Source of the DNA: a virus | Lineage: Duplodnaviria; Caudoviricetes | Virus record (IMG/VR): IMGVR_UViG_3300027804_000068 | Location: 2,752-66,751 of that record | Direction: 5' to 3' (one strand) | Length of the DNA stretch: 64,000 bases | Translations under genes and position numbers: made by a program | In this document: positions 32,039 to 52,033 of the stretch, in pieces | Layout of the letters: each line of letters begins with the position of its first letter | Numbering within the stretch: position 1 is the first letter of the stretch | Notes under the pieces: model-generated | The model's input: only the letters and a program-made list of their open reading frames with translations | What the model was told of the DNA's origin: nothing | Databases searched by the model: none

Positions 32039-32111
32039 TAGGCGTGAGTGGATTCGAACCACCGCTGGAGGACTTTTAAGGTCCCTGTCTCTTCCGCTGG
32101 ACTACACGCCC
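32039..32111 (-). tRNA. trnL: tRNA-Leu(UAA), short variable loop
   Basis: cloverleaf folded by hand; loop CT-TAA-AA; TTCGAAT T-loop; A73; no encoded CCA. Confidence 0.85.
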
Positions 32112-32230: not shown

Positions 32231-32302
32231 TGGTTCTGCGGAGAATTGAACTCCGTTCAGACACTTATAAGGTGTCGGCCTTAACCAATAGGCGACAGAA
32301 CC
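32231..32302 (-). tRNA. trnI: tRNA-Ile(UAU)
   Basis: GGTTCTG/CAGAACC acceptor; GACAC/GTGTC stem; loop CT-TAT-AA; TTCAATT. Confidence 0.85.
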
Positions 32303-49825: not shown

Positions 49826-50461
49826 TTAGACCCATTCAAGAGCTTCTGCAACTGTTGGGAATTGTTCGGAAAACACCTTCTTACATTCCAAGGCAATATC
49901 CATATGCTCTTTTTGAGTTCCGTGAGCAGAACGAAGATTGATGTAGTGAATCCAACTACGACAAGAACCCGTCATGTAAATGCGCGTAGGAGTCGCCAGA
50001 GGCAGGACAAACCTTGCACACTCCTTGGCAACACCATGATCAAGAAGTTCCTTGTAGAGGCGCATAGAGTGTGCAAAATGGTCTTGAATCTTGCTCTGAA
50101 GAGTCAGTTTTTCATATTCTGGAATATCATCAATCGAGTTCTGACGATTCTTGGTGTCCTGACGGCGAAGGTCAGGAACAGGAATATAATCACTCAACAA
50201 AGAACTATCTGCGTAACGCTGCGAAAACTCTTGAAACGTGAAACTACGGTGACGCAAAATTTGTGCTGCAATTCCACGAGTTGTTTCAATCTCAAGACTC
50301 ATAGTGCTCTGCTCAAAAACAGACCAATGATTGTGCTTAATACAATAACGTAGCAAACCCGCATAGTTTTCAGAATCTTGATTCGCTGGATTAGAAACTC
50401 TAGCAATATATGCCATTGTTTGTTCTGCATCGGGAGTCACGCTGATAAGTTTTACAGTCAT
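49826..50461 (-). CDS. thyX: FAD-dependent thymidylate synthase
   Basis: RHRSFTFQEFSQRYA signature; KECARFVLP; TQKEH. Confidence 0.96.
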   Translation of the reverse strand: MTVKLISVTPDAEQTMAYIARVSNPANQDSENYAGLLRYCIKHNHWSVFEQSTMSLEIETTRGIAAQILRHRSFTFQEFSQRYADSSLLSDYIPVPDLRRQDTKNRQNSIDDIPEYEKLTLQSKIQDHFAHSMRLYKELLDHGVAKECARFVLPLATPTRIYMTGSCRSWIHYINLRSAHGTQKEHMDIALECKKVFSEQFPTVAEALEWV

Positions 50462-50622
50462 TTACCAAATCCTTTTGATGTTTTCTTTTCTAGTTCTGCA
50501 AGTTCCTGTTTCAGTACTCGCAATTGTTTTTTCATTTCAATTAATTTTTCAGGAGAATATAAGTGCTCCTGTTTTGCCATTCTTTCAAGCAACTTTACCA
50601 ATTCTCTTGCTCTACTAGTCAT
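50458..50622 (-). CDS. hypothetical protein, 54 aa
   Basis: manual translation MTSRARELVKLLERM...KGFGK. Confidence 0.65.
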   Translation of the reverse strand: MTSRARELVKLLERMAKQEHLYSPEKLIEMKKQLRVLKQELAELEKKTSKGFGK

Positions 50623-50788
50623 CTAAATCAGAATCCTCAAAAATTTCGTCGTAATCTAAAATTGGTCTTTTTCTTACCTCTGGATTTGTATAAGAATATG
50701 CAGATACATCAGAATAAACTTCTGCTTTCAAAGAATCAACCAAGAGTTCTAGATTACGAACAATGAGTTTTAGTTTGTCTCTGTCCAT
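50615..50788 (-). CDS. hypothetical protein, 57 aa
   Basis: manual translation MDRDKLKLIVRNLELLVDSLKAEVYSD... Confidence 0.7.
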   Translation of the reverse strand: MDRDKLKLIVRNLELLVDSLKAEVYSDVSAYSYTNPEVRKRPILDYDEIFEDSDLDD

Positions 50789-50819
50789 AAAGTGCTATTC
50801 TCTGTGGGTATTTTAGCAT

Positions 50820-50847
50820 AAAAAAAGGAGGGGATCAACCCTCCTTT
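50820..50847 (-). terminator. Rho-independent terminator
   Basis: AAGGAGGG/CCCTCCTT stem + T run on minus. Confidence 0.85.
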
Positions 50848-50850
50848 ATA

Positions 50851-50952
50851 TCAAGCAACTTGTGGTTGCTTCGCCATATTCAGTTGTGCGTTATGAAGGA
50901 GTTTCTCCTTTTTTGCTTTGAGTTTGAGATAGCGAACGAAGTAAGTATTCAT
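50851..50952 (-). CDS. small basic peptide, 33 aa
   Basis: manual translation MNTYFVRYLKLKAKKEKLL...; AAGGAGG RBS; ATGA overlap. Confidence 0.6.
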   Translation of the reverse strand: MNTYFVRYLKLKAKKEKLLHNAQLNMAKQPQVA

Positions 50953-51110
50953 TGTGATACCTCCTTGTTGTTATTGCAAGGACGATATGCTACTCCACGA
51001 TATGTATTTTGTGGATGTGCAGGAGCATGAGTTTGGTTATACCAAGAGACATACTCTTTTTTTGCATCTTCGGTGTTATACTTACACCCTCTATAAGTGA
51101 CTTGTGACAT
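50949..51110 (-). CDS. DUF4278-like small protein, 53 aa
   Basis: MSQVTYRGCKY...TYRGVAY; AAGGAG RBS at 51119-51124. Confidence 0.75.
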   Translation of the reverse strand: MSQVTYRGCKYNTEDAKKEYVSWYNQTHAPAHPQNTYRGVAYRPCNNNKEVSQ

Positions 51111-51142
51111 TAGGTTTTCTCCTTAATTTTGAGGCTAAAGAG

Positions 51143-51311
51143 CGTTCCTTCAGTCGGCTTTTGCGTCTATTTTGCACTCTTTTGGAGTAATCTGTTTGAT
51201 TTCCCAAACCAAGTCATTTTTTGCTTGTTTTGGAATATCAACCTTATAGATTCTCCCAACCATTAACTGTGCTTGTAGGCAAGTTAAAATGAGCGTTTCC
51301 ATAGATGAACG
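51143..51311 (-). ncRNA. glutamine-riboswitch-like aptamer 2 (Downstream-peptide/glnA-like) with an ORF in the P2 loop
   Basis: CGTTCA-TCTAT...ATAGA-CGCAAAAGCCGACTGAA-GGAACG. Confidence 0.65.
51150..51302 (-). CDS. nested peptide, 50 aa (C-x34-C)
   Basis: manual translation METLILTCLQAQLMVGRI...EIKQITPKECKIDAKAD. Confidence 0.65.
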   Translation of the reverse strand: METLILTCLQAQLMVGRIYKVDIPKQAKNDLVWEIKQITPKECKIDAKAD

Positions 51312-51314
51312 ATC

Positions 51315-51565
51315 CGTTCCGAGTCGGCTTACTTCCGTCCTATTCAGTTTAGCACTTAAGTTTCACAACATCCTTTCGGAGTTCTGATAGCAATCGGTCT
51401 TCTTTTCTTTGGTCTACTACATCGTCGTTTTTAACGATGTCCATTAGTTCCCACGCTGCGTCACAACTTATGGTCACTTGATTGGATTTGGCAAGTTGAG
51501 GTGTAGAGATAGAAAGAAGTGGAACCCATGCTAAAAGCAAAAGTGCTTTAGTCATAGGATGAACG
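51315..51565 (-). ncRNA. glutamine-riboswitch-like aptamer 1 (glnA-like) with an ORF in the P2 loop
   Basis: CGTTCA-TCCTAT...ATAGGA-CGGAAGTAAG-CCGACTC-GGAACG. Confidence 0.65.
51349..51555 (-). CDS. nested peptide, 68 aa (signal-like N-terminus, C-x36-C)
   Basis: ORF track; ATG is part of the P2 5' strand. Confidence 0.7.
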   Translation of the reverse strand: MTKALLLLAWVPLLSISTPQLAKSNQVTISCDAAWELMDIVKNDDVVDQRKEDRLLSELRKDVVKLKC

Positions 51566-51575
51566 TTAGGGGAAT

Positions 51576-51605
51576 ATTATACCCCTATCCATCCTATATA
51601 TGCAA
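51576..51605 (-). promoter_or_regulatory. sigma70-type promoter
   Basis: TTGCAT-N18-TATAAT, -10 ends 10 nt before aptamer 1. Confidence 0.65.
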
Positions 51606-51657
51606 GTTTTGTGTGGAAACGGTAATAATAGATACAAAATAGTATCGATATTATACT

Positions 51658-51689
51658 AAAAAACGTGAAGATTTATAAAAACCTTCACG
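51658..51689 (-). terminator. Rho-independent terminator
   Basis: CGTGAAG/CTTCACG stem + T6. Confidence 0.7.
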
Positions 51690-51730
51690 CGGGAAAATTT
51701 TGCCGGAGAAATTTTGCCCCATCTGGGAAA

Positions 51731-52033
51731 TCACTTTCGCTTTTTGGTTTTGGGTGCTTGATAACCCCATGTCTTTGGATTGTATCTGCCATATCCAAAA
51801 CTAATGCTTTTTAGATTCTCACGAAACTTATCCCAATACATATCAAACAAACGAGTTCTCGTACCTCGTGTAAGATCATAGCAAAGGTTATCATCTACCA
51901 CGTACTTAACAATATAAGCATCATTAGGTGCTTCTTTAGTGCGAACATCATCATATGAACCATTTTCTAGAATAATCTCACAACCGTAGCGCGATTTGCA
52001 GGTTTCTTTTTCTGCTGTTGTCCAATGGTCCAT
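51731..52033 (-). CDS. conserved hypothetical protein
   Basis: ORF track (52084 start); MDHWT start preferred. Confidence 0.75.
   Translation of the reverse strand: MDHWTTAEKETCKSRYGCEIILENGSYDDVRTKEAPNDAYIVKYVVDDNLCYDLTRGTRTRLFDMYWDKFRENLKSISFGYGRYNPKTWGYQAPKTKKRK

What the first reader, a model, noticed from the sequence alone, without database searches (positions are those of the whole stretch)
50820..51605. Tandem glutamine-riboswitch-like aptamers that each carry a complete paralogous peptide gene inside the P2 loop, ahead of a DUF4278-like gene
Seen on the minus strand: promoter (51576-51605), then CGTTCA-TCCTATG[68-aa ORF]TAAactga-ATAGGA-CGGAAGTAAG-CCGACTC-GGAACG. Three nt later comes CGTTCA-TCTATG[50-aa ORF]ATAGA-CGCAAAAGCCGAC-TGA-AGGAACG, then an AAGGAG RBS, a DUF4278-like ORF, a 33-aa ORF and a terminator. 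P1 (CGTTC/GAACG) and P2 (TCCTAT/ATAGGA; TCTAT/ATAGA) are complementary in both units. Established: CGUUCA...CGGAAGUAAG...GAACG is the core of the glnA/Downstream-peptide glutamine riboswitches of cyanobacteria, which often occur in tandem and precede DUF4278 genes. Unusual here: the normally short P2 loop is expanded to roughly 130-210 nt and holds an ORF whose AUG is part of the P2 5' strand. In unit 2 the stop codon lies inside the aptamer core. The two nested peptides look paralogous (C-x2-A...L-x-x-E-[LI]-[RK]...C, spacing x36 and x34), so aptamer+ORF was duplicated as a module. Inference: a nitrogen-status switch in which aptamer folding and translation of the nested ORF compete, possibly switching output between the nested peptides and DUF4278.
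Basis: partly seen in the sequence, partly recalled or inferred. Interest (0 to 1): 0.88.

Follow-up and report, generated by a model that had tools for sequence, protein, structure and literature searches.

The report
Genes nested inside interlocked glutamine riboswitch
In this cyanophage a glutamine-sensing RNA switch is built from two sensor cores that appear to swap strands, and two of its hairpins each close around a real small protein gene, so sensing nitrogen status and translating those genes must compete on one RNA; I found no paper that describes this layout.

Summary
On the minus strand, 51565-51142, lie two glutamine-riboswitch cores. Each P2 hairpin encloses a complete ORF, of 68 and 50 codons. 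An IF17-like DUF4278 gene, a 33-codon ORF and a terminator follow.

- **Rfam:** it finds nothing in the window. Orthologous units with short P2 loops in related phages pass the RF01739 threshold (35.4-40.1 bits).
- **Spread:** among about 115 viral contigs all four combinations of short and ORF-bearing loops occur, and 34 resemble the window.
- **P2 pairing:** it covaries across 138-215 nt, and no shuffle out of 2000 reaches the observed pairing.
- **Coding:** the ORFs are under purifying selection (dN/dS 0.17-0.34). There are 156 and 245 protein clusters.

The base after unit 1's P2 (CGG or CGC) pairs with the base after unit 2's GGAACG in 111 of 111 loci (G:C 45, C:G 66). The within-unit pairing fails in 45 loci, the window included.

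Paralogy of the two peptides is only weakly supported by sequence. Competition between translation and folding is inference.

This scan found the same layout earlier in at least 61 other genomes. I found no paper that describes it.

The parts
51576..51605 (-). Putative early promoter: -35 TTGCAT 51605-51600, 18-nt spacer, -10 TATAAT 51581-51576. The transcript would start a few bases before the first CGTTCA.
   Evidence: Sequence. Relatives have TTGACT-17-TATAAT at the same place. The consensus scan does not list it because the -35 matches 3 of 6 bases.
51560..51565 (-). CGUUCA of unit 1: the 5' strand of the outer P1 helix, with pocket bases C1 and G2.
   Evidence: Invariant in about 115 viral loci. 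Residue roles are taken from PMC6698751.
51554..51559 (-). P2 of unit 1, 5' strand (UCCUAU). It contains the A and U of the ORF1 start codon (AUG 51555-51553).
   Evidence: Six base pairs with 51343-51338. It closes in the MFE and centroid folds.
51349..51555 (-). Nested ORF1, 68 aa: a two-Cys peptide with a hydrophobic N-terminus. It sits in the P2 loop of unit 1, and its stop lies 5 nt before the 3' strand of P2.
   Evidence: 245 protein clusters. dN/dS 0.30. Two homologues found by protein identity alone are nested in the same way.
51338..51343 (-). P2 of unit 1, 3' strand (AUAGGA).
51330..51337 (-). Linking strand CGGAAGUA of unit 1. G51335 is the long-range pair partner of C51142. AGUA is one half of the E-loop consensus.
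51314..51329 (-). AGCCGACU mini-hairpin, C, then GGAACG plus G of unit 1. This is the 3' strand of the inner P1 helix. G51314 is the proposed partner of C51163.
51306..51311 (-). CGUUCA of unit 2. It pairs with GAACG of unit 1 across the GAU linker; that G is G51314, so only two bases (51313-51312) are free.
   Evidence: The hairpin appears in the MFE folds of the window and of S-PM2. Linkers are 3 to 5 nt.
51150..51302 (-). Nested ORF2, 50 aa: a two-Cys helical hairpin. Its AUG lies in the 5' strand of P2. The last five codons and the stop (DAKAD*) are read from the aptamer core.
   Evidence: 156 protein clusters. dN/dS 0.24. AlphaFold2 pLDDT 86. 83 of 90 loci end in DAKAD*.
51291..51305 (-). 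P2 of unit 2, 5' strand (UCUAU 51305-51301), plus a second helix P2a inside the coding region (CGCUC 51295-51291).
51166..51179 (-). 3' strands of P2a (GAGUG 51179-51175) and of P2 of unit 2 (AUAGA 51170-51166).
51142..51165 (-). Unit 2 core: CGC AAA, AGCCGACU, GAAG, GAACG, C. It forms the 3' strand of the outer P1 helix and carries the GAAG half of the E-loop. C51142 pairs with G51335, and C51163 is the inner linking base.
51119..51142 (-). Expression platform: CUCUUUA (51142-51136) can pair with the Shine-Dalgarno UAAGGAG (51125-51119). Its first base is the long-range pair base C51142.
   Evidence: An 8-bp helix in the MFE fold. Conserved in most loci that have C at this position. Function is inferred.
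50949..51110 (-). 53-aa DUF4278-like (IF17-like) gene.
   Evidence: PF14105 E 1.8e-4, below the cut-off for this copy. 58 of 58 homologues hit PF14105. phrog_5049 E 1.4e-12.
50851..50952 (-). 33-aa ORF that overlaps the DUF4278 stop (ATGA).
   Evidence: Counterparts occur in S-SRM01, S-PM2 and DSL-LC03. In some phages it follows the aptamers directly.
50820..50847 (-). Intrinsic terminator that ends the unit.
   Evidence: 9 pairs, 5 of them G-C, followed by a T run.

Best explanation
The region is one transcription unit of about 750 nt. Its first 420 nt or so form a composite glutamine riboswitch.

**Anatomy**
- Two glutamine-aptamer cores are present, but their P1 strands are exchanged.
- The outer core uses CGUUCA, P2 and CGGAAGUA of unit 1 together with GAAGGAACG-C of unit 2.
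- The inner core uses GGAACG-G of unit 1 together with CGUUCA, P2 and CGC of unit 2, joined by a 3-nt loop.
- Each P2 hairpin closes around a real gene for a small two-cysteine protein. The start codon lies in the 5' strand of P2. The end of the gene lies next to or inside the aptamer core.

**Consequence (inferred)**
- A ribosome that initiates, elongates or terminates on either nested gene must open that P2 and the adjoining core. The sensor can therefore assemble only on RNA free of ribosomes, and a folded sensor hides both start codons.

**Output (inferred by analogy)**
- Known glutamine riboswitches switch IF17 translation on (PMC6212724). By analogy, glutamine binding would fix the outer P1 helix and its long-range G:C pair.
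- That pair takes C51142 away from the CUCUUUA segment that masks the Shine-Dalgarno site, and so would open translation of the IF17-like DUF4278 gene.
- High glutamine would thus favour DUF4278 and the 33-aa ORF. Low glutamine, or nascent RNA, would favour the nested peptides.

The anatomy and the coding status are shown. Ligand binding, the direction of switching and the function of the peptides are inferred.
For: **Riboswitch identity**
- Short-P2 orthologues of both units reach the RF01739 gathering score: 35.4-40.1 bits in 8 loci and 28.9-34.2 bits in cultured relatives. Among them, L034 carries the window-type ORF1 and L055 the window-type ORF2.
- The bases that contact glutamine in the solved structures (C1, G2, G18, C19, C39, G40, G41; PMC6698751) are all present.

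**P2 closes around the ORFs**
- On unique stems of unit 2, pairs 3, 4 and 5 are paired in 39/39, 37/39 and 35/39 cases, with four pair types each. None of 2000 shuffles reaches the observed values.
- The predicted probability that P2 closes is 0.81 in natural sequences and 0.15 when the ORF interior is shuffled; 83 of 84 loci exceed their controls.
- The window fold has z = -4.06, and both P2 helices are closed.

**Interlocking**
- The third base of the CGN triplet that follows unit 1's P2 (N = G or C; the "linking base") pairs with the base after unit 2's GGAACG in 111 of 111 loci (G:C 45, C:G 66). The within-unit reading fails in 45 loci.
- Both states occur inside several ORF and stem families and next to many different leader sequences.
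- L244 is the only IMG/VR contig with C after unit 1's GGAACG. It is also the only one with CGG in unit 2.
- AGUA occurs only in unit 1 and GAAG only in unit 2.

**Coding**
- 156 and 245 protein clusters.
- dN/dS of 0.17-0.34 in six families, with changes at codon position 3 > 1 > 2.
- 88 of 90 long unit-2 loops hold an ORF that starts 3-6 nt after CGUUCA.
- AlphaFold2 pLDDT 86 for the 50-aa peptide.

**Operon**
- DUF4278 family membership, terminator, and an anti-SD/SD helix in the fold.
Against: - Rfam reports nothing in the window itself, at the gathering score or at E up to 10.
- The P1 strands never vary, so strand exchange rests on one covarying long-range pair per core plus the split of the consensus. 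The inner pair has a single compensatory case (L244), which also fits the within-unit reading, and 7 unpaired exceptions.
- The loci are related and recombine. Linkage could inflate the 111 of 111 count, and I applied no tree-aware test.
- With the first linker base used for the inner long-range pair, only 2 to 4 bases (2 or 3 in all but one locus) remain to close the inner P1 helix, which may be sterically tight.
- My sample was chosen by an exact unit-2 core, so other core variants (seen in L247 and L248) are under-sampled.
- No interior structure of the ORF is conserved as a common set of pairs.
- No experiment shows glutamine binding, translation of the nested ORFs, or the direction of switching.
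- The expression platform differs between lineages.
Confidence: 0.6

Rival explanations
1. There are two independent tandem glutamine aptamers. Each unit folds alone with its own P1, and the pair acts as a pseudo-cooperative doublet whose P2 loops happen to hold ORFs.
For: - Each short-loop unit scores as a stand-alone RF01739 match.
- Tandem glutamine riboswitches are known: 157 doublets in PMC9481103.
- In the 66 loci with C,G,C,G at the four positions, and in L244, both readings fit equally well.
Against: - In 45 loci, the window included, both within-unit long-range pairs would be mismatches (G.G, G.A or G.U, and C.C). The cross-unit pairs stay complementary.
- Unit 1 lacks the GAAG junction and unit 2 lacks GGAAGUA.
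Confidence: 0.15
2. The ORFs are passengers. Small mobile or shuffled phage genes settled in tolerant hairpin loops. The riboswitch works as usual, and the overlap with translation has no regulatory purpose.
For: - All four combinations of presence and absence exist.
- Several unrelated-looking ORF families occur, and the same family can sit in either unit.
- Phages with short loops, such as S-PM2, manage without the ORFs.
Against: - The start codon always lies 3-6 nt after CGUUCA, inside P2, and the stop lies in or beside the core.
- The coding sequence supports closure of P2 and often extends the helix to 9-20 pairs.
- ORF-bearing loops outnumber short ones about 3 to 1 in unit 2.
- Physical interference with folding is unavoidable whatever its purpose.
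Confidence: 0.15
3. The RNA is a relative of the glutamine aptamer that no longer senses glutamine. It could bind another ligand or a protein, or serve only as a structural or processing element.
For: - The window gives no Rfam match.
- Both cores depart from the consensus: the J3/1 junction is shortened in unit 1 and the J2/3 junction in unit 2.
- The P3 helix is reduced to about two pairs.
Against: - All ligand-contacting bases are kept and almost invariant across more than 110 loci, while the flanks vary (PMC6698751).
- The element stays linked to the IF17-like gene, as in cyanobacteria (PMC6212724).
Confidence: 0.07
4. The nested reading frames are not translated, and their conservation reflects RNA structure only.
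For: - No Shine-Dalgarno site is evident.
- The start codons are paired.
- Neither peptide matches any Pfam or PHROG family at a significant E-value.
Against: - dN/dS is 0.17-0.34, and changes follow codon position 3 > 1 > 2.
- Length changes come in whole codons.
- Both cysteines are invariant.
- AlphaFold2 gives a confident helical hairpin.
Confidence: 0.03

Closest known systems
Glutamine-I riboswitch (glnA RNA motif, Rfam RF01739), for example the gifB (IF17) leader of Synechocystis (PMC6212724)
   Same: - It has CGUUCA, a P2 hairpin, CGGAAGUA, GAAGGAACG and a long-range G:C pair.
- It is linked to a DUF4278 gene.
- Short-loop orthologues pass the Rfam threshold.
   Different: - Here the full consensus is assembled only across two units.
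- P2 loops of 222 and 140 nt hold translated genes.
- P3 is replaced by a second core.
- Rfam does not detect the window copy.
Glutamine-II riboswitch (Downstream-peptide motif, Rfam RF01704; structure in PMC6698751)
   Same: - The glutamine pocket is the same, built from CGUUC, GGAACG and a CGC linking strand with a C:G long-range pair.
- Unit 1 of S-PM2 scores 24.6 bits to this model.
- It is found in marine picocyanobacteria upstream of short DUF4278 genes.
   Different: - In glutamine-II the GGAACG strand lies in a pseudoknot loop at the start of the downstream ORF.
- Here it comes from the neighbouring unit.
- Here the ORFs lie inside the hairpin that follows CGUUCA.
Tandem (doublet) glutamine riboswitches (PMC2864571, PMC9481103)
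   Same: Two cores follow one another ahead of one gene. The short-loop phage forms, such as S-PM2, would be counted as such doublets.
   Different: - The papers I could read describe them as separate aptamers.
- Here the covariation indicates exchanged strands, and the loops carry genes.
Leader-peptide attenuation and upstream ORFs that compete with mRNA folding
   Same: Translation of a short ORF and an alternative RNA fold exclude each other on the same leader.
   Different: - Here the ORFs encode conserved folded proteins, not sensor peptides.
- The competing fold is a metabolite-binding aptamer.

Membership tests
Glutamine-I riboswitch (RF01739) | Score at or above the Rfam gathering threshold (35 bits). 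| tested here: not met
   The window gives no match at the gathering score or at E up to 10. Orthologous short-loop units score 35.4-40.1 bits in 8 loci and 28.9-34.2 bits in cultured relatives. The long loops are the likely reason for the miss.
Glutamine-I riboswitch (RF01739) | P1 helix CGUUC/GAACG. | tested here: inconclusive
   Both strands are present twice and never vary. Pairing is therefore possible, but sequence cannot say which strand pairs with which, and there is no covariation.
Glutamine-I riboswitch (RF01739) | P2 hairpin directly after CGUUCA. | tested here: met
   Covariation holds in both short and long loops; none of 2000 shuffles reaches the observed pairing at pairs 3-5. 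P2 is closed in the predicted fold of the window.
Glutamine-I riboswitch (RF01739) | Junction consensus CGGAAGUA plus GAAG (E-loop). | tested here: met
   It is met only across units. CGGAAGUA is in unit 1 (51337-51330) and GAAG in unit 2 (51151-51148). Neither unit has both.
Glutamine-I riboswitch (RF01739) | Long-range Watson-Crick pair between the third base of the linking strand and the base after GAACG. | tested here: met
   Across units it holds in 111 of 111 loci, with two pair types. Within units it fails in 45 loci, the window included.
Glutamine-I riboswitch (RF01739) | Selective binding of L-glutamine. | not testable with these tools
   The ligand-contacting bases named in PMC6698751 are present. 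Binding needs ITC or in-line probing.
Glutamine-II riboswitch (RF01704) | Pseudoknot between the 5' CGUUC and a GGAACG located in the loop of a downstream hairpin at the start of the ORF. | tested here: not met
   The window gives no RF01704 match. GGAACG is not in a hairpin loop at the start of an ORF here. Only unit 1 of S-PM2 gives a sub-threshold 24.6 bits.
DUF4278 (PF14105) / IF17-like proteins | Match to the Pfam model. | tested here: inconclusive
   The window protein scores 22.2 bits against a cut-off of 25.3, E 1.8e-4. All 58 homologues hit PF14105 at E up to 0.01, the best at 1.2e-7.
DUF4278 (PF14105) / IF17-like proteins | Inactivation of glutamine synthetase through the C-terminal region of IF17. 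| not tested
   The protein has only 53 residues. PMC6212724 notes that short IF17-like proteins lack the C-terminal part that contacts the enzyme.

The most novel reading that the evidence does not exclude
A strand-swapped double glutamine aptamer that wraps two translated genes works as a translation-coupled nitrogen switch. On nascent or glutamine-poor RNA, ribosomes make the two-Cys peptides and keep the sensor unfolded. Once the RNA is free of ribosomes and glutamine is bound at one or two sites, both nested start codons are locked away and the IF17-like gene is opened. That would give reciprocal output from one RNA. It would also make this the first natural riboswitch whose aptamer encloses protein-coding genes.
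Probability: 0.35. Interest if true: 0.9.

Novelty: new variant of a known kind. Interest (0 to 1): 0.8.

Why it matters
- Riboswitch aptamers are treated as compact non-coding domains, and search models are built on that view. Here a validated riboswitch class tolerates, and seems to exploit, 140-220 nt of translated sequence inside a core hairpin. It also appears to assemble its binding pockets from strands of two units.
- Standard scans miss these copies, so surveys probably undercount glutamine riboswitches in cyanophages.
- The layout occurs in model phages such as P-HM1 and P-SSM4. How marine viruses read host nitrogen status during infection is therefore open to direct experiment.
- The layout also offers a natural example of coupling between ribosome traffic and ligand sensing.

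Tried and rejected
- **Rfam on the window** (gathering score, and E up to 10 over 50700-51750): no glutamine match, only chance hits. RF01739 on the whole 66.7-kb record: none.
- **Direct profile comparison of the two window peptide families:** not significant, E 0.16. Against the diverse unit-2 set it was weak, E 3.9e-3 over 17 columns.
- **RNAalifold on 34 unit-2 sequences:** no conserved interior structure, and P2 was mis-drawn.
- **AlphaFold2 of the 68-aa peptide:** low confidence, pLDDT 55.
- **Foldseek of the 50-aa model against the PDB:** nothing below E 3.9.
- **ESM Atlas:** no usable lead.
- **Pfam and PHROGs for both nested peptides:** nothing significant (only chance-level Pfam hits at E 0.1-0.2).
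- **The single genome-contig scan, with a 17-base core pattern:** chance hits in unrelated bacteria plus one probably mis-binned phage contig. Whether host cyanobacteria have nested ORFs therefore remains unknown.
- **A lipoprotein signal peptide** was considered for the hydrophobic N-termini and rejected. The residue before the first Cys is T, S, D, N or K rather than G, A or S, and the 50-aa form has only seven residues before that Cys.
- **Literature:** Ames and Breaker 2011 is not in the held library, so I could not check whether that paper already noted strand exchange in tandem copies.
Full report
**What is in the window**

The window comes from a T4-like cyanophage (Kyanoviridae). The held record is a 66.7-kb fragment, and the nearest cultured relative is Synechococcus phage S-SRM01, at about 75% identity.

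- a promoter-like site with a perfect -10;
- CGTTCA-TCCTATG, a 68-codon ORF, then ATAGGA-CGGAAGTAAGCCGACTCGGAACG;
- a 3-nt linker;
- CGTTCA-TCTATG, a 50-codon ORF that runs through ATAGA-CGCAAAAGCCGAC-TGA, then AGGAACG;
- a Shine-Dalgarno site, a 53-codon ORF, a 33-codon ORF that overlaps it by ATGA, and a terminator.

The terminator scan confirms the terminator. It does not list the promoter, because the -35 matches only 3 of 6 bases. A second terminator at 51690-51663 closes the upstream gene, so this is a self-contained unit.

**Are these glutamine riboswitches?**

Rfam finds nothing here, at the gathering score or at E up to 10. Relatives settle the question.
- S-PM2 carries the same two cores at the same place, both with short P2 hairpins.
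- S-SRM01 and DSL-LC03 have a short unit 1, and a unit 2 that holds a homologue of the 50-codon ORF.
- The short units score 28.9-34.2 bits to RF01739 in these phages.
- They score 35.4-40.1 bits, above the 35-bit threshold, in eight viral contigs.
- One of those contigs, L034, has the window-type 68-codon ORF in unit 1 and a short unit 2 that passes the threshold.
- Another, L055, has a short unit 1 that passes the threshold and the window-type ORF in unit 2.

Both window units are therefore orthologues of RNAs that Rfam accepts. The long loops explain why the window copy is missed.

**How common is the layout?**

- In unit 2, 90 loci have a P2 of 43-215 nt (138-215 nt in the 89 that could hold an ORF) and 29 have one of 12-22 nt.
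- Of the 90 long loops, 88 hold an ORF of at least 45 codons that starts 3-6 nt after CGUUCA.
- Of those, 83 end in DAKAD-stop, read from the core GAC GCA AAA GCC GAC TGA.
- Unit 1 is also long in 43 loci. It holds either the window family (MTKALLLL...) or a second family whose last codons, GRK-stop, are read from the core CGCAAGTAAG.
- All four combinations occur: short/long 38, long/long 34, short/short 12 and long/short 9. A further 22 loci have other P2 closing pairs.
- The model phages P-HM1 and P-SSM4 have the long/long form. Their nested ORFs are annotated as hypothetical proteins and no riboswitch is annotated.

**Does P2 really close around the ORFs?**

- On unique stems of long unit-2 loops, pairs 3, 4 and 5 are paired in 39/39, 37/39 and 35/39 cases, with four pair types each.
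- None of 2000 shuffles reaches these values. Short loops and unit 1 behave in the same way.
- The residue before DAKAD thus covaries with the untranslated bases before the AUG, which only base pairing explains.
- The predicted probability of the first five P2 pairs is 0.81 for natural unit-2 sequences and 0.15 when the ORF interior is shuffled. 83 of 84 loci exceed their controls.
- In the window family, a second helix between codons 3-5 and the codons around the second Cys is 83% paired, with two compensatory pairs. Some loci have uninterrupted stems of 9-20 pairs.
- The window RNA folds with z = -4.06, and both P2 helices are closed in the MFE and centroid structures.
- RNAalifold found no shared interior structure beyond this.

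**Are the ORFs genes?**

- The 50-aa and 68-aa proteins have 156 and 245 clusters at 90% identity, nearly all of the same length.
- Median dN/dS in six families is 0.17-0.34, with changes at codon position 3 > 1 > 2.
- Both cysteines are invariant.
- AlphaFold2 predicts a helical hairpin for the 50-aa protein with pLDDT 86. The 68-aa model is poor.
- Two homologues of the 68-aa protein, found by protein identity alone, are nested in unit 1 in the same way.
- I found no known fold or family for either peptide.

**Are the two peptides paralogues?**

- The direct profile comparison fails (E 0.16).
- Each family aligns from Cys to Cys with the second unit-1 family, at E 1.5e-4 and 2.2e-3.
- The unit-2 families are clearly one family (E 6.7e-16, partly driven by the shared tail).
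- The strongest point is that one peptide family occurs in unit 1 in L009, ending in GRK, and in unit 2 in L060, ending in DAKAD.

I conclude that there is probably one loose superfamily whose members move between the loops. I do not see evidence that aptamer and ORF were duplicated together as a module.

**Tandem or interlocked?**

In the solved structures the pocket is closed by a long-range pair between two bases: the third base of the linking strand, directly after the hairpin, and the base after GGAACG (PMC6698751).
- In 111 loci, the third base of unit 1's linking strand (the CGN triplet after P2; the "linking base") and the base after unit 2's GGAACG are G:C in 45 and C:G in 66, with no exception.
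- Within units, 45 loci, the window included, would have G.G, G.A or G.U in unit 1 and C.C in unit 2.
- Both states occur inside several ORF and stem families and next to many different leaders. A single ancestral split therefore does not explain the pattern. L247 and L248, sampled independently, also fit.
- For the inner pair, unit 2's C faces G in 104 loci, A in 6 and U in 1.
- L244 is the only IMG/VR contig with C after unit 1's GGAACG, and it is also the only one with CGG in unit 2. That contig also satisfies the within-unit reading, so it shows a coordinated change without discriminating between the two readings.
- The AGUA half of the E-loop consensus exists only in unit 1 and the GAAG half only in unit 2.
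- The hairpin GAACG-GAU-CGUUC between the units forms in the MFE folds.

I read this as an outer core (5' half of unit 1 with 3' half of unit 2) around an inner, permuted core. The caveats are these:
- P1 never varies.
- The loci are related.
- I applied no tree-aware test.
- The inner loop is short.

**Mechanism**

It is shown that the start codons lie in P2 and that the stops lie in or beside the cores.

It follows from ribosome size that initiation, elongation and termination on either ORF open that P2 and its core. The sensor and the ribosomes therefore exclude each other.

The direction of switching is inferred.
- In the window, CUCUUUA (51142-51136) pairs with the Shine-Dalgarno UAAGGAG (51125-51119) in the predicted fold.
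- Its first base is the long-range pair base C51142. A glutamine-bound outer core would compete with this masking helix and open the DUF4278 gene.
- That would match the ON behaviour shown for gifB (PMC6212724).
- The platform differs between lineages, so this may not hold everywhere.

The downstream gene is IF17-like. The window copy scores just under the Pfam cut-off, but 58 of 58 homologues hit DUF4278.

**What is known**

- Glutamine riboswitches, their tandem forms, their link to DUF4278 and their presence in cyanophages are all published (PMC2864571, PMC6212724, PMC9481103, PMC9964418).
- In seven literature searches I found no paper that places an ORF inside P2 or describes exchanged strands.
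- The 2011 paper by Ames and Breaker is not held.
- Earlier agents of this scan reported the same layout in at least 61 other genomes. Their notes agree with what I tested here.

Noticed in passing
L012, L020, L063, L074, L085, L104: the 40-50 nt directly after unit 2's GGAACG: Some marine contigs carry an extra conserved element between the aptamers and the Shine-Dalgarno site. It reads GGAACACGGATCA, then a hairpin whose stem covaries (CTC-GAAA-GAG, CCTC-GCAA-GAGG, CCC-TCAC-GGG), then TTAAAGGTG. I could not identify it.
   Followed up: no
L247 860-945, L248 720-805; also L045, L056, L099, L109: In several phages the DUF4278 gene is absent, and a homologue of the 33-aa ORF (for example MALILIKQK...) directly follows the aptamers. 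The small ORF may therefore be a regulated output in its own right.
   Followed up: partly
L247 805-830, L248 665-690: These copies have a different unit-2 core, CGCAAAAGTTGAGCC(G/C)AAGGAACGC, in place of AGCCGACTGAAGG. The mini-hairpin region therefore varies in lineages that my exact-pattern scan could not sample.
   Followed up: no
window 49826-50461 (-), 50458-50622 (-), 50615-50788 (-): Directly downstream lie two small ORFs, of 57 and 54 aa (the latter coiled-coil-like), and then a 211-aa ORF. The matching genes in relatives are annotated as thymidylate synthase (ThyX type). Many cyanophages share this gene order.
   Followed up: partly
window 32039-32111 and 32231-32302 (-): Two tRNA genes (Rfam RF00005, 52.2 and 59.1 bits).
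   Followed up: no
window 51650-51690 (-): A terminator (12 pairs) ends the upstream 117-aa gene. It overlaps a second promoter-like site (TTTATA-18-TATAAT, 10 of 12 matches), which would give a longer leader ahead of the aptamers.
   Followed up: no
L121 unit 2: One contig has a window-type unit-2 insert of 155 nt whose reading frame is broken. This is either a decaying copy or an assembly error.
   Followed up: no
L051 897-989, L007 11262-11350: PhotoRC-II RNA motifs (64-75 bits) lie on the same contigs as the glutamine elements.
   Followed up: no
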